From NCBI RefSeq assembly GCF_003704095.1, contig NW_020846063.1:868001-932000 (forward strand): a stretch of 64,000 nt of DNA. Reading direction: 5' to 3'. This document shows positions 1-37,017 of this stretch, piece after piece. The position numbers were made by a program, and so were the translations under genes. Position 1 is the first letter of the stretch, and every line of letters begins with the position of its first letter. This DNA is from Pocillopora damicornis (lineage: Eukaryota). A model generated the notes under the pieces. The model was given only the letters and a program-made list of their open reading frames with translations. It searched no databases and had not been told where the DNA came from.

Positions 1-7438
<7,438 letters not shown>

Positions 7439-7451
7439 CTCTTTGCTTCAA

Positions 7452-13110: not shown

Positions 13111-14554
13111 ATGCAGATAACAATACTATCCATATTACACACAGCAATCCATGTCTCGCTATGTATTATGGGAACGTCAGCTTCCCTTAAGTGCCGATCA
13201 GTCGCTTCATTTTCCGACCACGCCCTTACGGGATACACCTACAAGGCAACATCCGGGATACGCTTTGAATCTTGCGTCGCAACATGTGACGCTGACCCGC
13301 ACTGTTACAGCTTTAACTACGTCATTCGCGACAAAACTTGCGAGCTCAGTAACTCTTCGCGCTCGGCCGATTCAGAGTACTTTGTGCGCAGGTCTGGGGT
13401 GGTTTACATGGACAAACTAACAGAACCCGTGGAGCACTGCAAAACACTTCCATGCAGAAACAATGGAACTTGCCAGAAAATTCAGCGCCATCCTGGGTTT
13501 GAGTGTTTTTGTCAAGATGAGTACAGAGGGGAAAAATGCGAAAGTAAGGAACGAGCTTAATTTACTTATAAGGTCTTTGATCCGTAATCGACCGAATCCA
13601 TCTACTCATGTGAGGGATACGTAGGTTGCTAACAGTAATTTACCATTATAGATTAAAAAAAGCAAAGAGCTTGCTCTCCCGTCAATCAGAAGAAATTTCT
13701 TGGTTTGTAAGGAAACTTTCGTTCAGCCTTTGCCATTGAAATAAATTTTCACAACATTGAAAACAAGATCGTTCCGTCGATAAGCTTTTTTTCGATGGGT
13801 CCAGGATTGCTGTGAAATTCCGTACATATGAGTCTTAGACAAAAATAACAGGTATCCTCATCATTAGTTTGCAGTCCTACCGCATTGGGTCTCGGTGATA
13901 ATAAACTGCCTGATCAGAATTTCAACGCCTCCTCCAGCTTACATCCATTCAGACCCAGCGACGCTCGCCTGCATGCAGCTGGTTCGTCTTGGGTCAGCGA
14001 TGGTGTCGAAAAGGACAAATTTCTGCAGATTAGTTTCCAGCCTCACCCCAGACTCATCACAAGCGTGGCCACCGAGGGTAGCCCTGGCCATGATTGGTGG
14101 GTTGTGCTTTATAATCTTCAGTACAGCTTGGACGGTGTCACGTGGTTCTACTACGAAAATGAGAACTCCCCTGGGTCACGAAAGGTGATGCAGAAATTCC
14201 TTTCCTCGCAACTAAATATTACACTAACTTGCGCTACTGTTAGAGGTTATCCCATTTTCTGTTCTTTGAAGCGACGAAGAGTATTGCTAATCCCCCTGGA
14301 TAGGATCAACAAGTTCACCGTGGAAAATTTATAATTCGAGGTGAAATATTCAGTTGTAATGTTGCAGATGGATGTACTTGTAAATAACCTATTTTCTTTC
14401 TCAGGTTTTTAATGGTAACCAAGATAGAAATAGCGTCGTGACTAACCAGCTTCATTCCCCTATAAGAGCACTGTACCTTCGTATCTCACCCTTGTTCTGG
14501 GCTGGAAAGATCGCGCTACGAGTGGAGATCTATGGATGTAACACCTACAGCTGA
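13111..14554 (+). CDS. Secreted PAN/Apple-EGF-F5/8 type C (discoidin) protein, paralog 1
   Basis: Exons 13111-13543, 13868-14184 and 14405-14554 (intron phases 1, 0). Hydrophobic N-terminus; PAN motif (DHALTG..ESCVATC..CYSFNY..CELS); EGF (C..LPCRNNGTC..FECFC..YRGEKCE); F5/8C (CSPTALG..ASSS..ARLH..SW..FLQI..VATEG..WWV..YSLDG..VFNGNQD..IALRVEIYGC). Confidence 0.88.
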
Positions 14555-15119
14555 TTACTTAGAAGCCAGGAGACATTTCAACAGTTGGCAGAGTAATTCA
14601 AACTCAGGTTATTACCACTCATCAACAACTGTTTCTTGGACTTACGCCAGGTGGAATATTTGTTCATCGACGAAAACAAACTCCTGTGATTGTAGAAGCG
14701 CAATTAGTTCAGAAATAGTCTGGGTTGAGGCCACTCTTGAAACCATGAGCCGCCGAGCTACTTTTGAAGCAATGCGTGGAAATACCGGACGGACTTATCG
14801 TTAGAGATTGGTAAAGAGCGAGCCTCCAACTCTACCTCGTCCAAACCAGCTAACATATAAATCCAATGTCAAAGATAGGATAGGCAATGCGTCAAGCAGC
14901 CTGCAATAAATTTTGACAAAGAAACGGTCTGGACGGAAGAAGAGTGGACATAAACCGAGGAATCATGAGCCAGAGAAATTCACTCTTTATTACAAACTGT
15001 ACCTTTACTCTCTAGAGTTGCTCACTATTTACATGCGTATTTACAAAACATTTTAAAGGTGACCTCAGTAATGATGATGAAAAGTATGAACAAAGAATTT
15101 TGAACGAAAAATAAATAAT

Positions 15120-18100
15120 TTAACGACGATCCGTGCTACGACGACTGGCCGCGCTGCTCACACGGGAGGAGGCCTTGGAACCAGCCGCTGAGCCAGGCCT
15201 TGAGCTCGTTTTCTTTCCTCGCGTACTGCTTGTAGGAGAGACACCTGGAAACGAGCGAGGAAACATTTAAACAGTTATTGTAATGACTGGAGTTGGAATA
15301 ATAGTAGCAGAAGTGAACCTCTCATCTCTTTCTCGATACAGTCCTTTGATGTAAATGAATCAGCTCAATAAACTAAAAAATTGAGTTATGTTCTCTCATA
15401 ATAAAATAGCAAGCAACAATGAAATGGTTTGAATTTTTTAATAAGTGGAAAATGAAAAAAAAAAGAAAAAAACAAACAAACAAACAATAGAGAAGCCTTA
15501 TCTGTTTTAATTTTACAAGAGATAATTCGTGGGTTTGTCCTTCTGGACAAACAGTGCCCCAAGCTGCGACCCTTCAGGTCGACATGGCGACTAAGTTTGC
15601 AATCATAGTCGCAAATTCAAAGACACCTATTTGATATTTCTGGCGATCATATCATGATCTGAGGCCACCTAACGGCAAATTGAAAAGAGTTTAAGCTTGG
15701 AGCTACCTAATTTCTTAAATGTTTCATTTTGTACGTAAGCTGTACTCAAGCTGTACTCAAGCAACTTGTCCCACGGCTCATGCTCTTACCTGGCTTCGGA
15801 CTCCCCGCGCCAGTGGGGCTTGCAGCACCCGCAAGAGCCAGAGCTCCAACATCAACAGTACCAACACCTCGGCGGCTGCTAGTTGAGATATCAGATCTGT
15901 ACAAGGGAACATACAATTCAATTCAAAATTAACAAGTTGCTTCTCTACTCGAGAAAAGTTCATTCACTTTAAAACATCGAGAATAAGAAGTGTAAGTCGA
16001 ATATAGGATCCGAGGTCCCTGCAGAAATATTATGTGACAAAAGCTATTTCCCAACAGCACAATGTATGTTTTCGCTTAAACTGAACAACAAGGAGAAATG
16101 AGGAGGAAAATGATTTTAGAGCAACGGCCATTCATAGCGAATAAAACTATCACATAGAACACAAAAGTTCTAAAAGTGAAGGCTAGCAGATTTTTTGAAG
16201 CACCAACAAAAGCAAAGTCAAGAGTAGTTGACAGGGCAATGAAAAGGAAAGAAAGCTACTGCAATTCAGGATTACTTTAGATATTTATTTGAAAACTGCT
16301 CGGGAAATCGCAGTGTGATCAATTACTTTTTTACCAAGTGGTGATCATTTTTTTCATTCTGCTATTCTCCAATTTTGTATCGAAGATCCATTTACAAGCG
16401 CACAAACCCTGCCTTACTCACCGAGCAGAAGACAACGTCCCAGAACTCCGCGAGCTACGAGAAGATGTTGGCCGCGACATACCAGGACCTGGGGAAGGAG
16501 GCATTGGTAACCCTGCCTGGCTGAAATAGATCTGGACACTGGGTCCTAGATCCGGATGACTGTGTAACACCTCGCCCATTTGTTTCATGGTGCGCGTATT
16601 AAAGTCCCTCAACTCTCTCAAATCCATATCCTTTTCCTCGTGAAGTTCCCCTGAACTTTTCTTGGCACTCCTTACGGAGCGCGCAATCTTGCTAGCCTCC
16701 CGGGAAGCTCGGTCTTTCTTTGTCTTCTGATCATCCAATTCCTTCTGTAAATTTGTCGCCTTGGCCTGCTTCTCAGTGATGACCTCAACCAAGCCTTGCT
16801 CGTCCGCGGTCAAGTTTTCCAAGGTGCCCTCCATAGAGCCCAGGTCTTCCTGTAACTCACGGATTTGCCGTCGTTTGTATTTATATTTATCCATCACAGC
16901 TCGCATCTGATCCTCCAAACGCTGTTTCTCGTCATACTCTTCACTCATCTCGTCCACTTTGTTAAAACTTTTCCGGTAAGTCTCGTTCCGGCCGTTCATC
17001 AGCCGCAATGTGTTTTCCAAAGCTCTATAAATAGCGAAAAAAAAAAAGCATTTTTAGTCTGCCAAGAACCTATAATGTCAAATATATCGATATTATCTTC
17101 ACTGCTAGATATTTATTGCCTGTCTTATTTCGCTTAACCCTTACCGTATCTCTTTCTCAGCCTTTCTGATCTTAGCATCCAGTTCATCTCCCTCACGCTG
17201 CAGCTCCTCCTTCTCCTGAGCTGCCTTGATAACGTAATAGGCTTGAGACCTTTCCTCCTCCCCCTCGGGAGGCGCCATTGAGATCATCAGGATTTCATAC
17301 CTGGCGCCAACAAATAGGAAATACACTATTTAAAAAGTAATGCACACAAAATTCCCTGTTACGTTTGCAATCCAATTCATTCAATCGTTGGCTCATTTAA
17401 GTTCAAGTTTATTCACCACCATAAAGTTCACAAAAATAAAATAAGTTGTAAGGAGACTTCAAGAAACCTACAGGGTTCGTTTGCTTATTCATTCACTAAC
17501 ATACTCACTGAGTTAATCATTTAAATGATAAGCCACTGTACCTTTTCCGCAATTTGTCAATCTTAGATATCCGTTCATGTAACTCGGAGCTGCAAGAAAA
17601 TGTAAAAGAACCAGTTATTTAATCTATCAAAAGAAGAAACGACATCCGTCGCGTATTTCAATTGAAATGCTTCAATACCTGACTGTCTGTCTCTCTTCCT
17701 CTGAAGATTTAATCTGTGCTTGGAGCATGTCTTTATGAATGTTTATTTCATGGCGCCGCTGTTTCATCGCCTGCAGTAGCAGTAAGACAAAGTATTGCAG
17801 CTTTAGTATGGTTCATTTTGAAAAAAAGGAATCACCTTAAGCTTGGTCACCTTACAGCAAACATTGTACAGGATACAGAACGAATTATTACGTCGTACTT
17901 TCTCTGACAGCATTATGACAGATTTGGAAAAAATGCAACGTGAAACACGAACCGTTTCCAACTGCAGTTTCCTCTTTTCGAGGTTAAGCACATTGTCTGC
18001 TTTGTTGCTTAGAGTTTCTCTGAGGCGTTTGATTTCCAGCTTCAGAATATTCTCATCCACCATAAGATCCTACGAAAAATAGAGACAAAATAAAACGTTA

Positions 18101-21100
18101 TTGAAAAATGATTGAATCAGTCAATCTATCAATTCATAGGTCTCTAGAGCAGTCAAATTCAACCTAAAAAATTTGGACGCAGAACAAACACTTATCACGC
18201 GGTTTTGTCTCTTTGGCTTGCAAGGAAGTGAATAGTTCTGGCTAATCACTAGCGGGCTGGCCAATCAGTGCACACAAAAAGCGCTTTTCATCTGTGGGGT
18301 ACATACCGACGTATTTTATGTAAAGAACATTTCCTTGTGCGTAATAAACGGAGAAACAAAAGGAAGGCTGTAGTGCAAACCTGTTTTAATGTAACAACTT
18401 TCTTCCTCTCTCTCTCTGAGCTGTCATTATGTAGATTCAGTTCCTCTGCAAAAGAAGGAGGAGTTTGAGACATCTTTCGTTCGTTCACTTTGAAAACCAA
18501 TGTTTAGACGAAAGTTTTGTATCATGGAATCATCATGATGATAAATCACTCACCGATTTTGCTGGTGAGAGTCTTCATTTCTTCTTTTCCTTTGTTTAAG
18601 TCTCGGTTTGCACGTCTTAGATCATCCTATGGAAAATGAAAGTTCGAAAAAACAAAATAATAACTATGGCTTTTCAGAGTTACCTTTACATCTCTACACA
18701 ATTTTTTTTAAGCGACAGGTTGAGCCATTCATCAAACTTACGTTCAAGTTCTTCATTTGAGCATTGAGAAGTGCGTGAGTGGAGTTGTGTTCCTCCATCT
18801 GAGACATTAGATCCTGGAAAAAGTTAAGATAAAAGGACAATCAATAAGAACTGTCTTCATCTCCACTAAGTCAAGTGTCATAGTCAAAGTGCCATAACGT
18901 GAAATTTTCACCTCTGAACACAATGCCCATAAAAGTACAATCAACACTTGTAAACTTTATACCTTTATTCTGGCCTCAAGTTGCAGTTTCTCTTCATTAC
19001 TTCGCTCTCCCTGCATGCGGCTTATTCTTCGCTCCAACTGTTGCAGTTGAAAATCCTACAAAACCACAAACAAAGCAATTACAGTACTTCAGTTAAAACA
19101 ATATAATGTAAGACAATGCTCAAAAATCCCATACATGGACTATGAAGTCTAAATTGAATCTTCCTCTGGGTGTGATATTTAGAAGGAGATCCTAGTCTTC
19201 ACATAGATATGACTCAGAATGAAAGGTTGACAACAATCAGCTCTCACAGTAATCCTAACCTGCATATAAATAATTTCCTGTTGTTTGAGTGATTCCTGAT
19301 CAAGTTTGTGTAGTTTACTGCTCAAGTTCCTACTGGCAGCTCTTGCACCCTGGACAAAATAAGAAAATCACATAAAAAAACAATTGAAGATTGAAATTGT
19401 TAAGACATATACATCCTCCCATTGTCCCAGTCAAGAGAATTGGGATAACAGCAAACCCTAATTACCTGAATTTCAGCTGCAGTATTGTTTTCCAAAACTT
19501 TACATTCATGCAGTTCCTCTGTTTTTCTGAACTAAAAAAGGAAACATTTCATGGCAATTACTTCTCATCGTTTATTTTTATTACATTTCACAGTCTTATG
19601 TTAGTCTTGGTGTACAATTGTCCATTCTGTCCCCACCTCCCCCAAAGAAGAATAGGAGAGTCTCCACATGATTTCTTGGTAAAAAGGAGTGAGGAGAAAC
19701 AAGTTACTATAAACAGGTCGCCGGTCTGTGAACATAATAAATATATAAATTCTTAGCTTTGAATTCCAAAAATGGCTCATCAATAATAATTACTGGTAAT
19801 TAAAAAGAAAATCATGCTGCTGGTTGCTAGAATGACAATTTAATTTGACTAACAGAAAACCAAAAAAATTGCAAGTTACTAACCATAAATATAGCTATGC
19901 TGGCATTTAGAAAAGTGCATAGTAGTCAAAAAAACCCACCATGAATTGTTATTTTACTATGCCGACTATAGAAGAACCACCTTCATCTTTAAAATGTTAC
20001 CTGAGTTTCACGAAGTCTGGCAAGCTGTTTTTCCACATCATAAATACGAGTTTCTTCTTCCTTTAACAGCATGTCCATTCTTTGAGCTTTTTCTTCTGCA
20101 GTGAGAGTCTCATCGGTAACAATTTTCAGCTGATGCCGCAGATCATCTCGCTCCTTTTGCACTCTATCAAGCCTAAATGGTTCACATGACTCAGTCAGCT
20201 TAAATTTGCAATCACTGTGAGAAAGTAGCACAATGCATATACTGTGGAGACACTACTAATAAAACATACATGTTCATCAATTCACAAAGAACAGTCATAT
20301 CAAGTTATTTTTTTGTAATAGGTTCCTGGGTTCAACAACTGGTAACTGTTGGCATCACTTAGGTCATAGTGATGGGTATGTACAATATATATACCTTTCT
20401 GTTCTGTTGGTAACTTCTTTCTTGAGCAGATTATGTTTATGCCTGGCACTTTCAAGATCTCTTGCTGTCCTGTCCACAGTGTATTTCAGCGTGTCAAGCT
20501 GACAAATGCAAAGAAACACAAGAAGAATTGTTAACTAAAGAACACTTGAATAACCAAAAGCAAATTCTAGCCTAGCTTTAGTATTAGGTTTAGAAACTTA
20601 ATTAACACCGGGAGAACTGAATGCCTCTTACTAAATAAGCTTTACATGCATCTCAGCTTCAGCACCTAAATAAGTTGAACTTCACAGTTCAAAGCTGAGT
20701 TACAATTATAAGAAACAAACAATTTTCAACATTTTAGAAGGCCACTCCTTTTAAAATTAAATTTACAAAAAAATGCCTTCTCTATTTAACAATTTATACT
20801 CAATAAACATGCAGAGGTAAACAACTGAAGATTTACCTCATCTTGAAACTGTATCCTAATTTGTTCAGCATCCTGGTACTCCAGACGCAATTTGGCCGCC
20901 TGTCTTTCAGCCACTCCAACTTTCTTCTCTTTTTCTTGGTTGTTAGCAAGCTCACTCTCCAGAAATTTCTGTTATAATCAGAAACCAGGAGGAGAAAGAT
21001 TTTACTTCATAAAATCTGTCACTCCCAGGTAATTTGGAGATTGAAAACTAATAAGACATGATGGATAAGTTAAAAAACATAGAAATTACTAGGTCTGCTC

Positions 21101-23904
21101 AATAACTTTAAAATCTTTAGGCCAAATAACATCAACCGTTCAAAGTTTTTGTGGTGTATGTCCATGTCCTGTTAATGACTTTGTAAAATAAACCTGGAAT
21201 TATTGTTAGTTCAAAGGATGTTTTAACCTGTTTTTCTTGGACCTGCTCTTCTCTGTCTCTGACTTCTAGTTTAACTTCAGCAAGTTTCTGAACAAAAAAA
21301 ACAGTTATCAAAAAGAGCATCTAAGCCCTACTCCTTACATGAAAAAAGTTTCATTGAATATTTTAAACTACACTTAAAAGCTAAAAGAAGATATACAGTA
21401 CATTGTATCATCATGTTTGACCTGAATTTCCTTAATTAGTAGAACATTTGTTAAATGACTTGTAAATTTGTGTACACTGTAGAATTCATAAAAAGTTTCA
21501 AGTAAATGTTATGGACAAAGGTTACATTATGTAGTTAACACAACTTCCTCGATGATCACATGAAGTTGGAAAAATACTCACCACAGCCAGTTGATCCATC
21601 TCTCTGTCTCTTTTCTGCATCTGTTCAATAGTGTTCTCCCACTGACGCAGCAATTCTTGTCTCTCACTGTGTGCCTTGCGGAACTCTTCTGCTGTCTTGT
21701 CTAATTCAATCTTAACATTTAAGAAATTGCTCAGGTTAACAACAATGAACAGAATTTTGAAACTCCCTAAATGTTATTTTTCTGATATCATGCATTTATA
21801 ACTGGTGGTTGAAACAACATTTTAAGCAAAACAGTTACATGTTGTACACCACTTAACAAAATATACATGTATGATCTCAGATGTGACACAAGATTGATTT
21901 TTGTCTGCCTGGGTAAAAACTTAAAGTGGGATTGTTACATATTCTACATATCTTTAAACTGTTTATGACTACACATGGAAAATCATTTCGGCATGTTACT
22001 GACCTGGGCTGTCATGGTAAGAGTTAATTCATGCTCCAGTTCCCTTTTCTTCTTAGTTGCATCATCTGTCATTCTTTCCATCCTTAATGTTAATTCCTAA
22101 TAATTAGAAAGANNNNNNNNNNNNNNNNNNNNNNNNNNNNNNNNNNNNNNNNNNNNNNNNNNNNNNNNNNNNNNNNNNNNNNNNNNNNNNNNNNNNNNNN
22201 NNNNNNNNNNNNTAAAGTACAAGTGATTACCTTCAGTTATCAAAAGACAATTTTTTACTTTATCATACAGTTTGTAAGAGGAAAACTATAATTACTAAGG
22301 TAGAAAATTTTGAAAAGCTTCAGAGAGTACGTTTGGAGCTGAAGCTTGAAACGTCACCTTTTTAAAATTTGCCATTTTGATGATAGTTGCCAATAATTCA
22401 CATGAGTTTTGTATCAACCTCTCAGTTAATCAACTGAAACTACCCTTCTTCATTAGCAATACCTGATATTTTACCCTTTATACCTTATCATCTGCATGCA
22501 TTTTCCTTATACTATTCTCTATACATTTACTGAGGTGCTGACAAGGAGAATTTGTTTAACAATCAAGAGCTTCTTTGGTTGGTGATCATTTCCTTTATTC
22601 TCCTGACCTTAATGTTTGATTAAACAGCAATACTGAGAGAATAAATTAAATGCCAATCACTCTAAAGGGTTAAAGGGTTAGGTGTTTAAGAGGAAGGTAT
22701 AGACAACATATTGCCCACAGATCAGAAAAGCAGACGAAAGTTATCTTATATGACTACAACTTCCACATACCTATCTGCATCAAGTGATTTTCAGTCCCTA
22801 TCTCTCTTTTCCTTGCATTAAGCAAATCCTGTTTGTGAAATTAAAAAAGTTTATTAAGAACGTCAAGGCACTAAAAAAATAAAATATATTGGGTGGAGAA
22901 TCGAGGGCGCAAAACCTCCAGGATTACACTTACCTGTGTGTGTTGTAGTTCCTGCTGTACATTTCTGAGATGTTCACTCATAGCATAGATTCTGTCAGCA
23001 TGTTCATCGAGCTGCTCTTTGTAAGTTGTGATGTTCTTCTGGGTCTCAGTTACCTAAAGAAAATAAAAACAATGTACATGCATGAATCAAATATAATGTG
23101 GAAATGGTCTGATACTAGATTTCAAAGTAAATTTCCCCTCAGTTTTATAGATTTAGTTTTACACTGTTTCCATTTCAAAAGTTCAAGAGAGGAGGTAGCT
23201 TTACCACAGTTTGATTAATGAGAAAATTTGGCAAGGTGTTCTAGGGATCTAGCTTTGTAATAATTTAAAAAATTAATATGCATTACAAGGATAAAATCAT
23301 AAAAAATCTCACTACTACCAAAATTATGGGCAAAAATTGATACAATCAGTGCATCAAGATTTCTCTTGGTAAGGTATGAGTTCATTTGATTTTAAACATT
23401 TGCAAACTAAGCTCAACGATGTTCATGGCGATCAGGACCCGGTTGTTCAAAGGCTTGTTAGCACTAACCTACCCGTATTGTGAAATTTTGATCCAGGTTT
23501 CTCTATTTCTCTGTTCAAAGGCCTTTTTAAGATAATTTTCCTTACTCTTTTTACAGCAGCCAATCATCAAATTGTAGACAAAAATGATTGATATGGATTT
23601 TCTTTCAAAGCTTTCAGACCTAAAATCAAATTTCACCCTAACCCTGGGTTATCTTAAACCAGCTTTGAACAATCCAGTCTGGGCTATCGAAGAAACTGTC
23701 ACGTAAAACAAGTTAACAAGATCTTGAGGTCTATCTTATACCTGGCTATTAAGATTAACTAAATACGAAAACTTAACTTTCCCTAAAACTATTCATTTCT
23801 TGTATTAAGTATTTTACCTCACTTTCCAGCTGTTTATTCTCCAGATTTGCCACTGGCATCGCAATGCCTTCATCAAAGTTTAGTTCACTCACGATGTCCT
23901 CCAT
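15120..23904 (-). CDS. CCDC39: Coiled-coil domain-containing protein 39 (axonemal ruler); some middle exons probably lost in gap 22113-22212
   Basis: First exon 23818-23904 ([27 protein letters not shown]). Further exons include 22934-23053, 22771-22828, 22004-22096, 21582-21710 ([35 protein letters not shown]), ~17953-18069 ([12 protein letters not shown]), ~17145-17300 ([42 protein letters not shown]) and ~16422-17024. The last exon is ~15120-15245. These peptides are characteristic of CCDC39/FAP59. Confidence 0.93.
22470..22681. mobile_element. piggyBac-type MITE copy
   Basis: TTTACCCTTTA...TTAAAGGGTTAG; shares interior motifs (TTCTCTATACATTT, CTGACAAGGAGAATTTG) with the 60537 and 1279 copies. 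Confidence 0.7.
23433..23682. mobile_element. MITE-like element in CCDC39 intron 1
   Basis: Imperfect TIRs CCGGTTGTTCAAAG / CTTTGAACAATCCAG around a non-coding ~220-bp interior. Confidence 0.55.
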
Positions 23905-25085: not shown

Positions 25086-28000
25086 CACAGTAAATACATC
25101 ACCATGTATGTTATCGTGAAAAATATATATGTGAAAATTCTGAGCATTTTCATTTTCCTTCACCAGGGCTCCTTATCCTCATAATAAAATTTTTTGTGGG
25201 TGTCTGAGTCATATGAACCATTCAGATTGGCTGAAAAAAATAGTTTGTTATAAACTGCAAGGTGGTTAAGGTAGGAAACTTGCTGTGGTGAATTCAGAGA
25301 TGCTTCTGTTTTAAGCGTTAGCAACCCTGGTACATCTTAGTATTTTTTTTGCTGACGAAGCCCAAAAGTTTCTTCATAGTCCAATTTTGCTAAATATTTT
25401 GTATTTGGTGAAAATAGGGGAAATGGAGAGAAGTTGTTAGGTACATTAGACCTCACCCCCGCTTAGTATATAGAACCATTATTGAATGTTTTCTCTGCCA
25501 CTGTATTTCTATAAAGGAATATTTTTGGATAATCTAGCTCTAAGGGAAACGTACAAAGATGATTGTTTGAAATACACAAGTACATGAATGAAATGTGCCA
25601 ATTTTTATTTGTGTAACCACTGCTATAAAAATTTTATCCCTTAAATTCAAGTTTCATAGTATGCACTGAAGAACTCATCGCCATCAGTAATGTGGAATAT
25701 ATATTTGTTACAACATGGCCATCTCTGAAATGATATAACAATTTTTCCCAAAAGTGATATTGTGCAGTATCATGCAGTGCAGTTTGGCATATGAAGGGTC
25801 AAATAGATTTTTCAATGACTGGCTTGCACCACAACAGAAATTGAATGAGGATGATGACAATAACTATACTTCAGAAGAGGGACAGATTTTTTTAGGAGCA
25901 AGCCAACCTCTTCCATGTTTAGAGCACAAGCAGTACCTTCCAGTCCCTTCTGAGCAAAAAAATCAGCAGAAAAAAAATAATGATTTTTACATACCATGTA
26001 GAACTCTTGATGGATTCAAGTCTCATAATTTACTTACGCAACATTTTTGGTAGCCGTTAGCTACCATATTCTGATGTTTGCCAATAACCTTGGTTGCAGA
26101 TATCAATAATAATATTAATAATAATGTTTTTTCTTATGGTCAAATATGCAGCAGTGACATCAGCTGTGCAAGTTACAAATACTGCAGAGCGGAGTAGAGT
26201 ATCTTGAAGAAACTAGAAATTGGATTCTACTTACTAAGACTCCTTGGCTGTAATCAACAGACTTGAACTGGAATTTGAACAATAAATTTTGCAGAAATTT
26301 AGGTAGTCTATGTAGGGATTTTGTGGAAGAATGGCCAAAAAAAATAAAGATCGAAAGAGCGGTCTAATTGATTTGGAAAGTATCGTAATTCCTTTGAGTT
26401 CTTACCAAAGGTCTTGGCGAAGATCAAACTACTAGGCAGAATTCCTCTTCATCGAAAAAAAGAATGAAGAGGATCTAACATCTCATTAAAAATCATGTAA
26501 ACAACGATGAAAACATTGCGATCTGATCCTTAAAATGATTTACTTCTTACATTATTTCAATGAGTACCATGGAACGTTGCAGTAGCCGATCGTAAATCTT
26601 TGACTTCTCTCACTGAAGAATTTTCCATTATCGTTTACTCGAAGAGAAATTTACCTGATCAAGACCACAATCACGCATATGCCAAATTTAATTATTGTTT
26701 GTGCCTAATGCATGCGATATGGATACAAACCGTTGTCAATTGGATATCATAAATACAGGCGAAAATTTTGAGGCCGCCATTAAAGAAAGTGGTTACCTCG
26801 GGTATTTAGGAAAGTAGTTTAACTTTTGCCAGGTGTTATAACTGACCGAAACGTTTTTACCAATCAGGTGTTTTCATTGAGAATTTAGATTTCGCTTTTG
26901 CGGGAGACTAAATTGCTAAATGTATTTTTTTCTTAGAGAAAAAACTTGTGTGTAGTATCGTGGACGAACTGAGCCAGTTTTATTTTTGCCACGTATAACA
27001 CATTATACGTTTTGTGACACATATCTTAAGACTCGGATCTTTTCGCTGAGAATTTCGATTTGACATTCGCGGGAGGTCACGGTAGATAATTATTTTTAAT
27101 TTGAGATGAAACCGATGGATGAGCAGAAAACAGTTTCACTCTTTCCCAATACAACACTTAATTTATTGCGTGCCACCTATCCTATCAATCAGGTGTTTTC
27201 GTTGAATCTTTTCAGTTTGGCATACGTACGTGAGAAGCGTAAAGATCAATATTTATTTGAGAGGAAACCTGTGTGTCGTACAGTGAACGCTCTCCACAAA
27301 TAATAGCTTCACGAAAGAACTTCACCTGGGACGAATGCGGGAAGAGCAGGCAAACATGTCGACACAAGTGACGGACGTTTCAAATGTTAGTGAAGTAGAA
27401 GTTGAGGCAGAAATACAAATGTTGAGCGTTGGAGAACGACGAGAAACGTTACGTAGTTTCGTCCCTGGTATTGCTTCAAGTCGAGCTGCGGGTGCAGACT
27501 TCATCAGGATGAGAAGCAAAGGTAACCTGTTATAGTTTTTTAACAACCGAGGATCTGCTTTGTTTCATTTTTATTGTCACGACTAATTCTACACTTTCAT
27601 GTCATGTAACTTGAAGAGTATAACATCTCAGTAACACCATCCATAAAAAACTGAGATTTAACATTTTGCCATACCGGGACACTGAGCCACCCAAGAGAAT
27701 ATTAGACTGATCTCAAATAGTTTAATTTGATAATACAGGTTACTTTCTTAACCTTCCATTGCAGAAGTGGCAATTTCGGAAAACTCAAATTGAACCACTC
27801 CTTTCTTAATCGAGATATCAACTAGAGGAAATTAAAAAGAATATTTCATGCTGTGCATTATGTCAAGGATTAAAATTTTCAAAAATAATTTCCGATACTA
27901 AAATCGAGGTAGTTGTTAGTAGTATCATTGATGTATACGTCAAACATTGTCATTTTAGAGAGATAAAAACACCACAATGTATTTTGCTTTTAAATGTCGA

Positions 28001-28789
28001 CATCAAATTATATTTAAAGAGGTCAGTTTCATTTCCATGTTTGGCACGATAAGAGATTTCGTTGTCACTCGAAAGGATAAATGTTTAAACTGAATGTGCC
28101 TCCAGTCTTTTAAGATAAATAACAAAGGGAAATACTTCCTTAGAAAAAAATACTACCATGTTGTGCGAGTTGTATTTAACATTAAACATCTATGTGTTGT
28201 AATTCAATATCGTTCTGGGCAATTTTTTAATTCAAAAATCTTTTCTTGGCGTAAAAAGACTATCGTGATCGTAATATTCGTTTCAGGCGATTATAGGGCA
28301 CAAGTTCATGTTGATAAATAATACATTAGAATCATCGAATGGTGCAACTTCCTTCAATAAACAAATTGAACCTGTTGATCAATAATTAATGCAAGCTCTT
28401 AAACTGTTCTCAATGATAACTCAAAGCGAGGAGAAGACATTAAGGTGTCAGTGTGTTTTGCGGCCTGAAAAAAATTAAGGAAGTGTATTTAAATTAAAAG
28501 AAGAAGATAACTTAACATTTATGCGAGAAAGCAGATCAAAAAACACTACAAGTCATGTTTGTTTTGCTCGATTCTTATATGTTTTTTTTTATTAATTAAA
28601 CCCCACCCCTTAGTATACAGGGCGACGTTGGTCAGTTTTAGGAAGTTAGGTTATCAAGAGATGGGCTACAGACCAGTGCGACATACAATTAATATTAATT
28701 TATTCAAAATTGGTATTGACCATGGAAATAGACGTGTATTTTGTTTCGGGTCTTTTTTGTCAGTTGCAGATAATCTTGAATCACCATTT

Positions 28790-30029
28790 ATGTCAATCCA
28801 CAAAACTGTCGTCTTTTTGATTCTGAGTGTGTCTTCATTGGGAAAGACCGCTGGGCAACTTCCTTGTCGTACGACCAGGTCAGTACCAGACCATGCCCTA
28901 AAAGGTCACGTGATTTCATCACCAGAAGGAAAGCGGCTCGAGAGCTGTGTAGCTGTTTGTGACAGCATTGACAATTGTTTCAGTATTAACTATTACATCT
29001 CATCGAAGAAATGTGAGTTGAACAATAAAACGGCAAAGTGGTACGCCAACGATCTGAGAGTAACACCTGGAGCAGTCTACCTAGATATCTTGTCACGTGA
29101 CTATACTCCGTGTGTCGATCGAAATCCGCCATGTTCTGCAGGAAAATGTGTCCCCATCCCTGGATCCTTAGCGACACGGTGTTTATGTGACGGAAATGCT
29201 GCTGCCTGTCATAATCAACGTAAGTCTTCGCCTAAAATGGAAGAAAATTGAGACGCAACCTTACATTAGACCTGATATTTAATGTGGATGGTGTTGTTTA
29301 TGAGTAAAATCCTAGAATTATTTGAAATTTTTGGTGTAAAATTTGGTCTTGAAAGAAAGTACTGGAACTCGTTTTATGTGATTGACATAACTCCTCAGAA
29401 ATCTTCTCTAGAGATGGAAAGGAAATTATATCCCCTCCTTGCAATCTCAATCATCTTTTTTTAATGTTTTCGAGCAGCCTGTATTTCCAAGCCATTAGGA
29501 ATGGAAGATGGTTCAATAGCGGACAATCAACTCACAGCATCATCAACGCACCCCACAGTTCAGCTGGGCTGGGGTCGACTGCACGACACGCGAGGAAGCT
29601 GGTCTGCAAACACAGATTCTGGTACCCAGTGGTTCCAAGTGAGCTTTTTACCAAACGTGAAACGCATAACAGACATCGCAACTCAAGGAAATGGAAAGAG
29701 CTGGTGGTGGGTTAAAACATATTACGTCATGTACGGGAAGGGGGGAGAGCCCCTTAGAAATTATGAGGAAAATAATCAACGCGTGGTGAGTAATGTTTTG
29801 AATTATTAACAACAAGCTATATTCCAGGTCGCCTCGTGTCACCGCATTACCGAACCCGTTATTTTCACGCACTTAATTTCAGGTTTTTCAAGGAAATACT
29901 GACAAGGATGGTGTAGTGAAGAAAAAGATAAACAATCCCTTCGAGGCGGATTCTGTCCGGCTAACATCTCTGGGCTATTCTGGAAAGGTTGCTCTGCGAA
30001 TTGAACTGTATGGTTGTGATGTAATTTAG
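28790..30029 (+). CDS. Secreted PAN/Apple-EGF-F5/8C protein, paralog 2
   Basis: Exons 28790-29219, 29478-29785 and 29883-30029. Signal-like MSIHKTVVFLILSVSSLG; PAN DHALKGH..ESCVAVC..CFSINY..CELN; EGF-like; F5/8C CISKPLGMEDG..LTASS..GRLH..WFQV..IATQG..WWWVKTY..VFQGNTD..VALRIELYGC. Intron positions and phases match paralog 1. Confidence 0.88.
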
Positions 30030-33000
30030 AATTACGTTTAACTCAAACAACTGAGCGAATGCAATGAAGAAAAATGTCTAAATAAATTTTAAGTGGCAAC
30101 GCACGATCCAAAAGACTTGTATATCGACCATGGTGTCAAAGACATATAACAATTCGTTGTTTCAGAGCTAATATATCTAACAGTTCCAGAACTTTAGTGT
30201 TTTTGCGATTCCCAGATGGCTTCCACATCTTTAGAGGAGTGTTTTGTAAGTCTGGTCAGTGCAGTGGTAATCACCTTTTAAGATTGGACATATACTAATA
30301 GACATGTTTATACTAAACTTAAATGCGTAGTATTCGAAGGAACACTTAGGAAAGTTTTAAGCATGTGCAAAGTAAAATTAGTTTAAACTTGAAATTATAT
30401 TCCTTTGGGACACCGCATCTCGTCAAATTGTCTTCAACTTCAACGCACTATTTAAGGTTAGGGGCTTTAAACTTCTAAAGAGGAATTATTTCTTCATATA
30501 TAAGCTATGTCTAATAGCTCTAACTGAAAAAAATTCGTCTTGGACAAAACTTTCCATTTTTCTTTACAACCAGTTGTCTTCATTGCACTCTTCTCACCAA
30601 AAGTCTTCCTTTGCACGAGATTGTTTTCCTAAAACTTAAATTAGATCTTCGTGGCGGCAGTTGTATCATCTTTACGATTTCTATTATCAGTTTGGCAGAT
30701 GCCTTGTTCCTGTTCCATAAAATTTTAATTGTAGTCAATTTAGAAACAGTCAGATCTGTATCTGGGCGAGCCCATTTCAATACACTAGGTCTAACTGTTT
30801 TCTTTGGCCTTAGCCCTTGAAACCGGCAAATTGACGGATGTGCATGAAAATTGTGAGAGCTCGCAAATAAGTTTTAGGTTATCGATATAGTTCATTCTAG
30901 CCTTGCAGCATTTTACAGTGGTTGGATAAATTAAAAAAAAAAAAAGACTGAACATACGCACAAAAAAACATTGACTAACAGTGTTACTGACACGAAAATG
31001 AGAGGGTGGCTAATGATGTATCGCAAGAGATTTTATATCGCGATTTTCTTCACTGAAGCCGGAACTGTGTTACTTCACAAGTGAAGCTGCTTGAGGTAAG
31101 ATGAATGTCATGCGCTCTTAAGTCATGTTATATAGGCGCACGCGGCTAAGTGTAACTGTAATGGAAAAAAGCTGGTTGTAATAATACTTCTTTCAAAGAA
31201 AGTGAAACAGTAACATAAAATGAGCTATTTATTTGGAGAGGAATCTTTCACTCTCCATGGACTGGGTTAGTAAGGACATGAATATTTCACACGTTATCCT
31301 GATAATGCGAAAGCAAGAAAGATTGTAGTGTCCATATGGTGTGAGTATGTCGTTGCAGGGAAGCAGGATCTAAAGTGCGCAGTCGCAGTCATAACGATGT
31401 GTATCTATTTACTACACTTAAATCAATTGACGCACCAGTTACAAAATATTGCGATTTAATTATGCCTTTCAAAGAAAGCGCAGATATCGTTGTTAGAGTG
31501 TTTAGCAAGCCTCATAAATGTCCCGGCCAAATCATCACCTAAGTCATAATTATTATTATTGTTTTTAAATATGATTGTGATCCACATTTAACTGGACCCA
31601 AAGCTTTGTAAGGATGGTGATCGAAACTTCTTTATTAATGCTTTTTGCAGAGTTTCTCCAAACATAAGACTGCATGTTAAATTTTTCACCATTTTCGTAA
31701 TTTAAGGACGAAAATATTTTTGAATCTGACGCTACTTCTTCGGTGTTAAGAGACAGCAAAACAAATTTTCTTCATGATAATGAATCTATAGTCAAGAAAT
31801 AATTAAGCAAATTCACTGTAACCGGTTTGCTCTGAGGGGGTACGAATCGTCAGCCCGTAGGACTCCAGACTTTAAGTGAAATCATTCTACCTTCGAGGCA
31901 AACAATAAAAACAAATATACTCGGGTAAAATTTTAACTATATGAATGAAACGTTCGCTGGAATATAAACAATTTTTTGGAAGTAAGCTGGTAAAGCATTC
32001 ACTTCTATTCAGTCCTCCAAACATTTTCTTGTTTCAGTTCAACATAATAATAATTTTGACCCTCATCTAGAAATGTGTCAAAAAAAACTAATTTCAATCG
32101 TAAACAACTCTTGTTTAATTATTTTGCACCAAAGTCGATCATCACAACTGTAGGCAACAGTTTATTTTCAAACTATTGATAGATCTTGAATTGAAGTTTG
32201 AAATTCTATCCACAAATGACTTAATCTTGCTCACTGGATGCAGATTTTTAATTTTGCCATTTTTTTTTCTTTTTTTGCCGGAAGCAATTTAAATATGGAG
32301 ACCGAGGGATAGCTATGTTTAATTTAAGTTTCATTTTATTAATTTGATCGTTTCGATATTTTTTCCGCGAACTTCTCGTCAATTTGCAAAACAGCATGCA
32401 GAGGTACCGGGAATTTAATTTTTTTAACTTTTCACCGTAAATGTCAGTTTGAATTGTTATTTTCTTATACAATACGAAACTCTCCCGTTACCTCAATCAA
32501 AACCCGTCAATCTTTCATAGTTTGAAGAAGTAACATTTAATAAAACCGCTCCACTTCTGTACACAAACGTATTGACAAGATACGAATTACGAACACTCAC
32601 GCGGATAAATTTCTCTTGTTGTTGATAAGTAACAAGACTTCAACTCGCACAGCATCAAAACCACAAATGTCCTAAACATTATAAAATGAAGTTCACGAAA
32701 GGCTGAATATTGTCAGCTGAATTTTCACATTGCCGAGAAAAAAACATGCACACCAAGTCTTCAAAAACGGTGAGAGAGAACAAATATTGATTATTTTTCT
32801 GTTGCATGACTCTATCACTAACCCAGAACAAAAAGGCGATACATTGTTTGTAGCAAATTCTCGATTTTTTTTTTATTTGAAGTCGCCAGCTGAAACGGAT
32901 AATTGCACGGTTTGGATTGCAATTACTGACATGCAATGTTCACAGCACCAAGGTTGAATTCATCAAAAGTGTTACAATCAGAAAAATTCAAATTAGTTTT

Positions 33001-34090
33001 TCGGAAAAGCTTCTCATGCCTGGAAATATCGTTAATGACATAGGTTCGACATGTGTACTGAATGGCTTTCATCTGTGGAACTCATGGAGCACAATTTATT
33101 CTTTTATGGATGTTATTGTTTGTACCTATGACACATTTCGTCCAAAATCTATTAAAATAATAACGAACGGAATAATTGAAAACAGTCCGGGCTTCAAAAA
33201 ATCGTGTACCACTGGCAAATCTTTGTATGTTGTTCTCATGAGTACCGCAGAGTTGGATACAAAAAACATTTATGAAGACTAAAAATTTTCAACTTAAAAC
33301 AGATTAAGATAGCAGAAACTGGTTCTCGAGGTATGATTTCAGTTTTTTTCATTTCTTTGCGCGCATTATCTACTTTGAAGAGCTTTTTATTCCAAAGGTC
33401 AACCTGTATATCACCAGAATGGAAACTTCTATGCTAACTGATCGAAATTTGTCCAAGGCATACCTGGATTTCCTTCAAAATTCTCTGGAAGCATCAGCAC
33501 ATAAAAAAGACTGCTACAGACTGTTACTATGTTCGATGAAAATCAAAAATTTTTAACTAATTCCTGTCTTCAAATGTCGTCCATAGCTCGCGGCATTAAG
33601 GGTAGCTCTTCAAAGCGGTGTCAATGCAATGCTTGCGTCTCCTTCCCGGGTTTTCTGAACATAAACTTTAAGGATCTTGTGAGTAACTTGCTAACAGCTG
33701 TGCTCAGTCTGCTAGAATATGAGTACCTACGCTTAGCCACTTAACAAATTTTATCCAATGTATCAATAATGCTCCTATTCATGTACGGGAATATTTTGCA
33801 TCTATTCAAAAGCCATTACCTTTGAACAAAAGAATCGTCTAAACACGTTGGTAAAATTTTCCAATCTCCACGACTTTTCCCGATATGTACATATTTGATC
33901 GACCAGTAAATAAAGTGTTAGATTTTTATCTAAAACTCCATTGACCTTCACTAAAAGCAATAAATTTATACATGGTATAAATATACAAAAAATATCGGTG
34001 ATGATGATAATAAACAATGAATGATGTCATTTATCAATTAATGTCTCAAATAATTATATTCCCTTTAACCGATATAATCTATTACAGAAG

Positions 34091-35469
34091 ATGTCAGCGT
34101 TAGTCACTCTCCTGGTCCTTCTTACCATCCATTCCGCTGAGACATGTGACACTTTCAAACCAATCAAAAACTACGTGCTGACTGGTCACGTAATTAAAAC
34201 CATCCGAGACGTCAACTTCGAGAAATGTACATATCGCTGTGAGCTTGAAGCCAAATGTTTCAGTATTAATCTTTACACAAAGACCAGCAAGTGTGAATTG
34301 AACCATGGCAGTAAGGAAATGTTTCCAAGTGATTTCAAGGAGGAACTGGATGCTCTTTATATTCATAATATCAGAAAGGACACCGGTGATCCGTGTAATG
34401 CGCTGTACTGCTTGCACGGCGGCTCTTGCAATCCGTTTCCACAGCCAAACTGCATGTGCCCCGTGGGATTCGTGGGATCGATCTGCCAAAACATTAGTAA
34501 GGACTGAATTATTCATTGATTTATAATTTTTAATAACACTTCTATATTAAATTTTAAGCATCGGCAAAACTTGTCAGCTCGCTAATACATTTTCCTGTAG
34601 CTTTATCCCTAGAGGCCATTGGAATCCAAGACGATGATATTATCTTTGACGATAAACTTACGTCCAGTACAGCCGCTGTTGGCCATGAAGCATGGCGGGG
34701 CAGGCTACATGGTAAGGGCAGCTGGAAACCAGTTTTAAGTGACTCGGACCCACGCTTCGAAATCGGCACTTTCAATCCAGCTGTGAACATAAGTTACATT
34801 GCAACTCAAGGAGCTCCTGATCAAGACTGCTGGCCAACTTCCTTCGCGTTGCGATACGAAACCGCTGGCCAATCAAAAGAATACCCCCAGGTAAGTAAGA
34901 CAATTTCGAATTAGGAATTTATCGCATGCAGTTATCCAAAAAAGAAAAATTGTATTTATTTCTTTTTCAATTGTATAGCAAATCAAAGGTCTACCTCGAT
35001 ATAAGCGGTTACAGTGACCGCTAGTGCTATTACGGTAAGCGTCCACCAAATTAAGCAATTTTGACGAAAACATCCCAAGTCGCCAATTTAAATAGAAACT
35101 TAACCTGGGTTTGAGCGAGTCTGCAAAAAAACCTGCCTTCTGTACTCAAAAGTTGGTTAGATTGTATCATTTTCACAAAACCGAGAAACGCACGCGCAGT
35201 GTTATTAAGTGAGAGCGTGAAAACCTGATATTTCTTGAGTTTCAGAGGCAAATTTAAGTCGCACAGACAAAAGTGTTAGGGTTCCAAATCGACCTCATAT
35301 TTATTTTCATTGAAAACCTTTCTACTTTCAGATCTTTGCAGGCAACATTGACAGAAATACAGTGATATATAACCCCTTGAAACCGGCTCTTGGCAACGTG
35401 TCGAAATTAGTTATCAGACCAGTTTCCACGAATGGCTGCATAGGTCTTAGATTAGAGCTTTATAAATGA
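34091..35469 (+). CDS. Secreted PAN/Apple-EGF-F5/8C protein, paralog 3
   Basis: Exons 34091-34496, 34601-34890 and 35332-35469. Signal MSALVTLLVLLTIHSA; PAN NYVLTGHVI..EKCTYRC..CFSIN..CELN; EGF DPC..CLHGGSC..CMCPVGFVGSIC; F5/8C IG..LTSS..GRLHG..SW..IATQG..IFAGNID..IGLRLELYK*. Confidence 0.86.
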
Positions 35470-35949
35470 TGCTGTGTTGGAGACGTATGATAAAAGAAAC
35501 AAAGCCATCTAAACAGGGATTGAAAAACGGAGATGTCTGTCATCTGGAAATGGACGAGCTCAAAACCAAATCTAAAACTTTCTTTCTTTCCTCATCAGGT
35601 GATGAAATGTTTGTAAGAGCTCAAGATTTGCGCTGAAATTTTATCTGTTCTTACGGCAAATACATGACACAAAGTTTATAGAAACCTCATCCGAGCTATT
35701 AACCAGACATTTGTCGTAATTTAAGCTTCAATGAAACATTATATTTAATGGTACTTGATAAAACTGTTTCTGTCAAGCTGATTTTCTAAAAGTGGTGACT
35801 TCACTGAGTTTACTCGGTATCACTTCGAGTAATCGGTAATTTATCTATATAACTTATTAAAGCTGTCAAGAAATTCAAATCACAATGGTATTATTCCATT
35901 TCTGGTGCGAATGAAGCTGTTCGCTTATCTATCAAGTGCTGAAATAAAC

Positions 35950-36462
35950 CAAATTTCTTCCACATCGCAGCCCTTTTCACTAATTAACGTGCCTCTAGAA
36001 GAAACTATTCAGATTTTAGCATAGAAAGCATTCAATGGGAACTGGTTTAACAACATACACAACCTTAACATCTTCGAGGGCGACCCTAATCAAGCTGCTT
36101 ACAATTGCAACTAAAGACCAGCTTTTCCAGTTTAACGGTGATTTGTACAAACAAATAGACGGCGTTGCCATGGGCTCACCACTAGGACCACTAACGGTTA
36201 ACACCTTTATGTGCCCCATTGAGGAGAAACTTGCACATGAAAACAAGCTTCCCGATTTCTACAAAAGATACGTCGAAGACACCTTCGCTTTGGTACCCGA
36301 CCTTGCCGCTGCTACTGATTTCCTTTCAGTTCTGAATGATGCTCACCCAGCAATCCAATTTACAATGGAAACAACAGTCAACAGCAGCTTACCTTTCGTA
36401 GGCATGGTAATCAACAAGATCGATTACCGTCTCAACACCTGTGTCTACAGAAAAAAAGACCA
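35950..36462 (+). mobile_element. Decayed Penelope-like retroelement reverse transcriptase fragment (truncated by gap)
   Basis: LFTN/VPLEETI, FQFNGDLYKQIDGVAMGSPLGP, RYVEDTF (degenerate YVDD), IQFTME..LPF..VYRK is the PLE-type RT motif series. There is an in-frame stop and frameshifts near 35985-36085. Confidence 0.85.
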
Positions 36463-36590
36463 NNNNNNNNNNNNNNNNNNNNNNNNNNNNNNNNNNNNNN
36501 NNNNNNNNNNNNNNNNNNNNNNNNNNNNNNNNNNNNNNNNNNNNNNNNNNNNNNNNNNNNNNTATTGGTGCTAGCTTTCCAATTTCTTAC

Positions 36591-37017
36591 TTTGACAGCG
36601 ACGCCCAGTGTAACCATCAAGACAATTGCAATTCAAGGTCGGACCCATGACACATGTGCTTCCATTTTCACAGGGCATACTTTCACAAGTATCACGATCA
36701 TGGTAATACTGGCGGATCACCATGTCCAAATAAACTGCTCCCTTCTGTTTCATAACATCTTTTGGGAAAGAATCCTTGGTTGCTCTGTTGAGTTGACAGG
36801 TTCCTCGCGATGGCATGAAGTTGATACTGAAACACTTTGGCTCAATTTCGCAAGAAAATGTGTAGCTCTCAAAAGTCTTGTGGTTTAGAGTCCGTATCAC
36901 GTGACCAGTGAGAACGTGATTGGTATCTCGGAAACTGGAGCGGCAGACGTTAGAGCCAGCGGTGATCTTTGAAAACAGGAGGGTATGGAGTAAAACGAAC
37001 TCCAAATATGGAGACAT
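36591..37017 (-). CDS. PAN/Apple-EGF paralog 4, first coding exon only (inverted; possibly a pseudogene; remainder in gap or lost)
   Basis: Signal MSPYLEFVLLHTLLFSKITAG; PAN NHVLTGHVI..FESYTFSC..CFSINF..CQLN; EGF C..MPCENGSTC..CNCLDGYTGRRCQ. Ends at the same phase-1 donor (GTAAGA, 36590) as the paralogs. An acceptor lies just upstream of the ATG (~37029). Confidence 0.8.

What the first reader, a model, noticed from the sequence alone, without database searches (positions are those of the whole stretch)
13111..37017. Dispersed family of four highly diverged secreted PAN-EGF-discoidin proteins interleaved with housekeeping genes
Seen: the three complete genes (13111, 28790, 34091) share one architecture, signal peptide + PAN/Apple + EGF (one exon) + F5/8C (two exons), with identical intron phases (1, 0). 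The fourth (37017, inverted) shows the same first coding exon and phase-1 donor. All four have an acceptor just upstream of the ATG, yet they differ strongly in sequence. One copy is separated from the others by CCDC39/NOL7. Established: PAN and F5/8C domains bind glycans, proteins or phospholipids. Paralogs 1 and 2 carry Trp-rich segments (DWWV, SWWWV). Inference: a small (~280-290 aa) secreted two-headed lectin or bridging-protein family under diversification, a candidate for mucus, innate recognition, symbiont or gamete recognition, or venom accessory roles. I know no named protein with exactly this minimal architecture.
Basis: partly seen in the sequence, partly recalled or inferred. Interest (0 to 1): 0.72.

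Follow-up and report, generated by a model that had tools for sequence, protein, structure and literature searches.

The report
Ancient coral secreted PAN-EGF-discoidin family
Four real, spliced coral genes encode small, predicted-secreted proteins that likely bridge two binding partners outside the cell; they are old, conserved members of an unstudied coral and sea-anemone family that databases mislabel as lactadherin, not a fast-diversifying novelty.

Summary
Genes 1-3 (299, 294, 277 aa) are signal peptide + PAN + EGF + F5/8C with intron phases 1 and 0. RNA contigs confirm 5 of their 6 coding introns. Gene 4 is also transcribed; its F5/8C exons are missing at an assembly gap. 'Under diversification' fails where it could be tested. 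Each paralog (27-35% identical to the others) has its own counterpart in other corals at 63-81%. Gene 1 orthologs give dN/dS 0.12-0.52 in 28 of 28 pairs. The architecture also occurs in sea anemones and matches a 290-member cnidarian cluster auto-named 'lactadherin-like'. Eight copies lie on this scaffold over 710 kb. They are not lactadherin: none has RGD, and gene 1 lacks factor VIII's membrane-inserting spikes. The 'Trp-rich' motifs match the usual aromatic pair of discoidin domains. One new detail: the branch holding gene 3 swaps the terminal cysteine pair for a covarying internal pair (disulfide inferred). No ligand, tissue or function is shown, and my searches found no paper on the family. 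The scan's earlier notes hold nothing on it.

The parts
13111..13543 (+). gene 1 coding exon 1: predicted signal peptide, PAN, EGF
   Evidence: (X3 record 7)
13868..14184 (+). gene 1 exon 2: F5/8C, N-terminal two thirds
14405..14554 (+). gene 1 exon 3: end of F5/8C and stop; 3' end faces the 3' end of CCDC39
15139..23053 (-). CCDC39 (neighbour, approximate extent); tail-to-tail with gene 1 here and in L031
24279..25082 (+). single-exon NOL7-like gene (NUC129 domain, just under the Pfam cut-off); neighbour
27287..27521 (+). candidate upstream exon of gene 2 with an open frame that could join in frame; splicing not shown
   Evidence: (P0203 begins with the same junction residues)
28790..29219 (+). 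gene 2 exon 1: predicted signal peptide, PAN, divergent EGF
29478..29785 (+). gene 2 exon 2: F5/8C
29883..30029 (+). gene 2 exon 3: end of F5/8C; intron predicted, not seen in RNA
34091..34496 (+). gene 3 exon 1: predicted signal peptide, PAN, EGF
34601..34890 (+). gene 3 exon 2: divergent F5/8C; no N-terminal Cys, internal Cys at the g1-W221 position
35332..35469 (+). gene 3 exon 3: internal Cys at the g1-K285 position, no C-terminal Cys
36020..36460 (+). reverse-transcriptase-like fragment next to the gap (weak RVT_1 hit, under the cut-off)
36463..36562 (.). 100-N assembly gap; the likely place of gene 4's missing F5/8C exons
36591..37017 (-). gene 4 coding exon 1: predicted signal peptide, PAN, EGF; the window's allele has Tyr at a PAN Cys position (36863) where three other runs read Cys
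38108..38185 (-). 5' untranslated exon of gene 4; an in-frame stop lies two codons before the ATG

Best explanation
These are four old paralogs of a coral and sea-anemone family of small, predicted-secreted proteins, each of which likely acts as a two-ended adaptor outside the cell, with the PAN head and the discoidin head predicted to bind different glycan or protein partners. Shown: the gene structures; splicing of all four in RNA; one-to-one counterparts in other corals; purifying selection on gene 1; the same architecture in anemones; eight copies on one scaffold. Inferred: secretion (hydrophobic N-termini, disulfide-rich domains, N-glycosylation sites); two binding ends separated by an EGF spacer; a fixed, paralog-specific ligand, because the discoidin loops differ sharply between paralogs while the paralogs themselves have been kept across coral lineages. 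Also inferred: the window genes do not dock on phosphatidylserine membranes as lactadherin does, and the family spread by ancient local duplication followed by dispersal along one chromosome. The ligands are untested; surface or matrix glycoconjugates are my first guess.
For: Architecture and folds: PAN Z 10-11 to plasminogen, HGF, factor XI/kallikrein apples and the lectins SML-2 and MIC4; F5/8C TM about 0.8 to neuropilin b1 and to factor VIII and lactadherin C2. Transcripts. Orthologs: g1-Oculina 181 of 284, g3-Stylophora 205 of 276, g3-Orbicella 173 of 276, g4 exon 1-Stylophora 108 of 142, g2-Stylophora 81% over 247. dN/dS is below 1 in 28 of 28 pairs. The g1 orthogroup has support 100/99 in both exon trees. 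No RGD in 27 of 27 sequences. The factor VIII C2 spike residues have no counterpart in g1. g1 and CCDC39 are tail-to-tail in another coral.
Against: No binding, localisation or cell-type data. The PAN fold is tied between glycan binders and protein binders, so ligand class cannot be read from it. Gene 1 evolves about six times faster than CCDC39 (dN 0.26 vs 0.04). Its loops run at about twice the domain's dN, with dN above dS in 1 of 3 close pairs (9 vs 2 changes). Oculina has at least four copies of the g4/428k branch, so some turnover does occur. dN/dS was tested for gene 1 only. Gene 2 may carry an N-terminal extension.
Confidence: 0.55

Rival explanations
1. Lactadherin-like opsonins: the discoidin head would insert into phosphatidylserine on dying cells or vesicles, and PAN would replace RGD as the phagocyte-binding end.
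For: EGF + F5/8C layout and database names. The paralog at C2698:193k and its anemone counterparts keep a long aromatic first spike. A coral genome paper links lactadherin-like expansions to clearance of dead cells (PMC6208414, passage).
Against: g1 lacks the residues matching both factor VIII C2 spikes. g1-g3 have short first spikes and near-neutral F5/8C charge (0, +2, -2). There is no RGD and only one C domain.
Confidence: 0.15
2. A recognition family under diversifying selection (symbiont, microbe or gamete specificity).
For: Paralogs are only 27-35% identical. dN/dS of 0.25-0.5 is high for a conserved gene. Loops evolve faster. Oculina shows a lineage expansion. Gene 4 differs from one RNA run by 6 nonsynonymous and 4 synonymous changes (10 of 11 differences listed).
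Against: Orthologs are kept one-to-one across coral families. 28 of 28 pairs have dN/dS below 1. Copies occur in Nematostella, Actinia and Desmophyllum, which lack algal symbionts (recalled). Paralog divergence is explained by age.
Confidence: 0.12
3. Structural or adhesive components of mesoglea, skeletal matrix or pedal glue rather than recognition adaptors.
For: Discoidin- and PAN-containing proteins are listed in the Nematostella matrisome, some detected in mesoglea (PMC12549020, supplement rows). Purifying selection fits this reading.
Against: No collagen, vWA or repeat modules are present, and the proteins are small. None of the rows that I saw is named PAN + EGF + discoidin, and I could not map the ids.
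Confidence: 0.12
4. Venom accessory proteins.
For: One Stylophora member carries the automatic name 'venom prothrombin activator non-catalytic subunit'.
Against: That name most likely comes from the shared F5/8C domain: members of the same family are also named lactadherin, EDIL3, retinoschisin, neuropilin-2, factor V and CNTNAP5. No protease partner or expression evidence was found.
Confidence: 0.04

Closest known systems
Cnidarian 'lactadherin-like' PAN + F5/8C proteins (ESM Atlas cluster of 290; e.g. Nematostella XP_032230489, Stylophora XP_022792931, Pocillopora XP_027048686)
   Same: Same size and architecture. The Pocillopora record matches gene 1 over 299 of 299 residues.
   Different: Only automatically named and, by my searches, never described or tested. 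One GenBank model fuses genes 2 and 3 (PFX34046).
Lactadherin (MFG-E8) and EDIL3/DEL-1
   Same: Secreted, with EGF followed by an F5/8C domain; next-nearest Atlas clusters at 0.86; fold match to lactadherin C2.
   Different: PAN at the N-terminus, one EGF, one C domain, no RGD, short spikes in the window genes.
Neuropilin b1, factor V/VIII C domains, retinoschisin, discoidin I/II N-domain
   Same: Same F5/8C fold and motifs; the WWV motif aligns with YYV of neuropilin-2 b1 and MYV of factor VIII C2.
   Different: Loops 1 and 3 are shorter; the gene 3 branch lacks the terminal Cys pair and has an internal pair instead.
PAN/apple lectins and adhesins (Sarcocystis SML-2, Toxoplasma MIC4) and PAN domains of plasminogen, HGF and factor XI
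   Same: Same PAN fold, Z 9.9-11.0, rmsd 1.9-2.8 over 69-77 residues.
   Different: 10-23% identity; the matches are tied, so no ligand can be transferred.
Cnidarian Polydom
   Same: Holds a PAN/Apple next to FA58C in its core (PMC12549020, passage).
   Different: A large matrix protein with vWFA, sushi, pentraxin and CUB domains; not this gene.

Membership tests
Cnidarian PAN-EGF-F5/8C ('lactadherin-like') family | PAN, one EGF and one F5/8C in a protein of about 280-300 aa | tested here: met
   g3's F5/8C rests on PDB hits of P0188; g4's on a transcript loose end and its Stylophora ortholog
Cnidarian PAN-EGF-F5/8C ('lactadherin-like') family | stand-alone spliced transcript with a stop after F5/8C | tested here: met
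   g1. g3: both introns and the 3' end covered by separate contigs. g2: first intron only.
Cnidarian PAN-EGF-F5/8C ('lactadherin-like') family | cleaved signal peptide and secretion | tested here: inconclusive
   Hydrophobic N-termini; upstream in-frame stops in g4 and in the L031 ortholog of g1. No signal-peptide predictor was available. g2 has a possible in-frame extension.
Lactadherin / EDIL3 | RGD motif in an EGF domain (recalled) | tested here: not met
   absent in 27 of 27 sequences
Lactadherin / EDIL3 | two tandem C domains and two or three EGFs, no PAN (recalled) | tested here: not met
   one EGF, one F5/8C, one PAN
Lactadherin / factor V/VIII C2 membrane binders | long hydrophobic spikes 1 and 3 | tested here: not met
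   g1 has gaps of 4 and 2 residues at the factor VIII C2 spike tips; g2 and g3 spikes are equally short. The 193k paralog outside the window keeps a long aromatic spike 1.
Lactadherin / factor V/VIII C2 membrane binders | phosphatidylserine binding | not testable with these tools
   needs a liposome assay
Apple-domain galactose lectins (SML-2, MIC4) | PAN/apple fold | tested here: met
   Z 10.1
Apple-domain galactose lectins (SML-2, MIC4) | galactose-site residues and glycan binding | not tested
   the fold search gives no residue alignment, and non-lectin PAN domains score the same
Canonical F5/8C domain | disulfide between the N- and C-terminal Cys | tested here: inconclusive
   Both Cys are present in g1 and g2 and absent in g3 and 17 further rows of its branch. 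Bonding was not observed.
Rapidly diversifying recognition families | dN/dS above 1 or loss of one-to-one orthology | tested here: not met
   28 of 28 gene 1 pairs below 1; orthologs found for g1-g4. Site models and genes 2-4 were not tested.

The most novel reading that the evidence does not exclude
An overlooked family of secreted two-headed recognition adaptors, older than the split of corals and sea anemones and kept on one chromosome, in which each paralog reads a different surface ligand. One branch has rebuilt its discoidin domain by trading the terminal disulfide for one that clamps the ligand pocket, and another keeps lactadherin-like membrane spikes. Together they would form a fixed extracellular recognition code for mucus, microbes or symbionts.
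Probability: 0.15. Interest if true: 0.65.

Novelty: new variant of a known kind. Interest (0 to 1): 0.3.

Why it matters
Mainly as a correction and a tidy target set. Coral transcriptome studies read these genes as lactadherin, EDIL3, neuropilin, retinoschisin or even a venom prothrombin activator and draw functions from those names; the anatomy supports none of them. A small, stable set of paralogs with orthologs in Nematostella and Exaiptasia can be knocked out and assayed. If they bind symbiont or microbial glycans, they would add a cnidarian-specific recognition layer. As it stands this is a domain-shuffled, uncharacterised family of a familiar kind.

Tried and rejected
(1) Exons of larger multidomain genes: rejected for g1 and g3 by transcripts with stops. 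The 510-aa double model PFX34046 is a g2+g3 fusion that lacks g2's last exon and holds g3's signal peptide internally. (2) Gene 4 as a pseudogene: rejected; it is spliced into an F5/8C start, its PAN Cys is intact in 3 of 3 runs that cover it, and Stylophora has a full-length ortholog. (3) Locating g4's missing exons in G000: a pattern search and a protein search found none. No DNA contig among the pieces shown bridges the gap (233 pieces not shown), so g4's inverted orientation is unverified. (4) Type II membrane topology from the upstream acceptors: rejected for g4 and for the g1 ortholog L031; open for g2. (5) Trp-rich motifs as special: W222 is present in 27 of 27 rows and W221 in 7 of 27. 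(6) Deep relationships among paralogs are unresolved in both trees. (7) RNA depth was not used to rank genes, since all runs are contigs. (8) Sanderia P0086 looks PAN-like at its N-terminus but Pfam did not score PAN or EGF, so I do not claim the family for jellyfish. (9) The profile search of solved structures was swamped by EGF hits, and the representative search by multi-F5/8C proteins (best 150 of 4318 listed), so range outside Cnidaria is poorly tested. (10) Full spliced models of the seven copies outside the window were not built; they rest on exon-level hits. (11) No complex was predicted. (12) The scan's earlier notes held nothing relevant.
Full report
1. Observation. Pfam scores PAN_1 in 4 of 4 first exons, EGF in 3 of 4 and F5/8C in genes 1 and 2. 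Gene 3's C-terminal half is not scored by Pfam, but its 95%-identical relative P0188 matches discoidin II, discoidin I and the CASPR2 discoidin domain. Paralog identity is 34.5, 26.9 and 28.1%. AlphaFold models of the gene 1 product (mean pLDDT 80.9) and of its first exon (87.3) match F5/8C domains at TM about 0.8 and PAN domains at Z 10-11.

2. Transcription. One contig of run X3 (RNA by the tool's guess) joins all three gene 1 exons at the predicted sites. A database protein from a 1936-base contig gives the same 299-aa product at 98% identity. Run X6 shows intron 1 of gene 2, both introns of gene 3 and a 1078-base 5' intron of gene 4: 5 of the 6 coding introns of genes 1-3 are seen. The acceptors just before the ATG are 5' UTR introns in gene 4 (in-frame stop two codons upstream) and in the gene 1 ortholog L031. 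For gene 2, an upstream open exon at 27287-27521 could add some 60-70 residues in frame; its splicing is not shown.

3. Gene 4. Its exon ends 28 bases from a 100-N gap that is flanked by a reverse-transcriptase-like fragment. The X6 contig runs on for 117 bases that lie nowhere in the stretch. Its first 30 bases, translated by hand, read as the start of an F5/8C domain (LQALGM), as in the Stylophora and Oculina homologs. Neither that pattern nor a related protein finds these exons in G000, so they are most likely lost in the gap. The window's Tyr at a PAN cysteine reads Cys in 3 of 3 runs that cover it.

4. Size of the family. A search with gene 4's exon gave 94 matches (150 of 498 candidates scored; PAN and EGF exons mixed). 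The eight that span PAN and EGF in one exon are all on this scaffold, from 192.6 to 905.0 kb; a second query returned the same eight. Seven of the eight have F5/8C exons downstream. Three copies checked on C1362 also have F5/8C, with a shorter Cys-rich linker. Most other PAN exons that I fetched show no F5/8C hit within the 10 kb taken.

5. Age and conservation. The genes are 98-100% identical to Pocillopora records. Gene 1 has orthologs in Oculina (181 of 284 identical), Desmophyllum and unnamed corals, with support 100/99 in both exon trees. Gene 3 matches Stylophora (205 of 276) and Orbicella (173 of 276), and gene 4's exon matches Stylophora (108 of 142). Gene 2 matches Stylophora at 81% over 247 residues. 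Nematostella, Exaiptasia and Actinostola proteins have the same layout, and Actinia has PAN and F5/8C with a reduced EGF. The Nematostella and Exaiptasia proteins group with the 193k copy (91/84 and 84/90, not starred), so at least one paralog likely predates the coral-anemone split. Arrangement is kept too. Gene 1's ortholog is tail-to-tail with CCDC39 in the transcript contig L031. In Stylophora, genes 2 and 3 are fused in one model whose accession is consecutive with gene 4's. Five Oculina members share one 34-Mb sequence. The ESM Atlas puts gene 1 next to a 290-member cnidarian cluster with PAN and F5/8C (score 0.94, 200 of 256 features).

6. Selection. Nei-Gojobori dN/dS among gene 1 and seven coral orthologs is 0.12-0.52 in 28 of 28 pairs, and 0.25-0.40 in the six pairs of 230 codons or more (the pairs are not independent). 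Against a fully conservative reading: dN is 0.26 against 0.04 for CCDC39 in the same species pair, where CCDC39's dS is saturated. Forty hand-picked loop codons have about twice the domain's dN, with dN above dS in 1 of 3 close pairs (9 vs 2 changes) and about 0.45 in the other two. Oculina has at least four copies of the gene 4/428k branch. Genes 2-4 were not tested for lack of ortholog DNA.

7. Binding anatomy. Against factor VIII C2, gene 1 has gaps exactly at the two spike tips (four and two residues), the known membrane-inserting residues (recalled). Genes 2 and 3 have equally short spikes and near-neutral charge; RGD is absent in 27 of 27 sequences. DWWV and SWWWV align with MYV of factor VIII and YYV of neuropilin-2 b1. 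The second Trp is present in 27 of 27 rows and the first in 7 of 27; gene 2's Stylophora ortholog has lost the run. The first Trp position lines the ligand pocket in neuropilin-1 (recalled), so it may still matter for specificity. The 193k copy and its anemone relatives keep a long aromatic first spike. Cysteine swap: 8 of 27 rows have both terminal F5/8C cysteines, 1 is truncated and 18 lack both. Of those 18, 17 have Cys at the positions of gene 1 W221 and K285, and the exception (P0183, the gene 4 ortholog) lacks both. The rows are related and partly redundant, and no coordinates were available, so the internal disulfide is inferred. The 661k copy has a Cys at the first position without one at the second, which does not fit neatly.

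8. Mechanism. Most likely (0.55) these are secreted bivalent adaptors: PAN at one end, a non-membrane-inserting discoidin pocket at the other, and EGF as spacer, each paralog with its own long-kept ligand. Structure, splicing, orthology and purifying selection are shown; secretion, bivalence and ligand class are inferred. Rivals are a phosphatidylserine opsonin (0.15), a diversifying recognition family (0.12), a matrix component (0.12) and a venom accessory (0.04).

9. Literature. Eight full-text searches (0 papers; 30: 0; 45: 6; 49: 105, 30 listed; 70: 182, 25 listed; 84: 2; 85: 7, 6 listed; 86: 21, 19 listed) showed no title or abstract start on this family. PMC6208414 (passages) lists genes similar to lactadherin among coral-diversified families; its supplement was not seen, so whether that is this family is open. 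PMC6010850 (passages) uses the same names for VWA-TSR proteins. PMC12549020 (passages; supplement searches, first 11-15 places per term, one file too large to read) lists lactadherin-like, PAN-EGF and discoidin proteins, none named with all three domains in the rows seen. PMC8162421 was seen as a listing only; the paper reader was closed before its supplements could be read, and they may hold the cell-type expression. Subscription journals are not covered.

10. Verdict. A real, expressed, ancient and conserved cnidarian family, mislabelled in databases and apparently unstudied. It is a new variant of a known kind, built from familiar domains. Interest 0.3.

Noticed in passing
window 14403-15243; L031 991-2256: Gene 1 and CCDC39 are convergent, and single RNA contigs run across both 3' ends here and in another coral, which suggests a conserved overlap of 3' UTRs (unstranded contigs).
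   Followed up: partly
G000:C2698:192599-195000 (L014): This paralog has a long Trp/Leu/Phe/Tyr-rich first spike like membrane-binding C2 domains and groups with the Nematostella and Exaiptasia proteins; it is the best candidate for true lactadherin-like lipid binding.
   Followed up: partly
G000:C1362:416000-453500 (L016, L023, L024): A younger tandem set of PAN + short Cys linker + F5/8C genes, with a fragmentary further copy in L024 at 6440-7699.
   Followed up: partly
G000, many contigs (C54, C1574, C1472, C1462, C3440 and others): A large superfamily of genes that begin with a signal-PAN exon, often in tandem, followed by other modules; L015 and L025 have EGF plus a long unidentified domain.
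   Followed up: no
window 27287-27521: An open upstream exon that could give gene 2 an in-frame N-terminal extension; the Stylophora model keeps the junction residues.
   Followed up: partly
window 22533-22621 and 39060-39110: Short repeated elements that draw many contigs from the runs laid; the first lies in a CCDC39 intron.
   Followed up: no
window 36020-36460: Reverse-transcriptase-like fragment ending at the assembly gap; it may be the repeat that broke the assembly inside gene 4.
   Followed up: no
gene 1 vs L031: Synonymous distance is 0.85 for gene 1 but saturated for the CCDC39 exon in the same species pair; unexplained, and it would inflate gene 1's dN/dS.
   Followed up: no
window 62609-63623: A fibronectin-III-like piece followed by a strong Frizzled cysteine-rich domain at the end of the window.
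   Followed up: no
database records P0202, P0184, P0204, P0179: Annotation errors around this family: a fused two-gene model, a venom-derived name, and models with wrong acceptors or missing first exons.
   Followed up: partly
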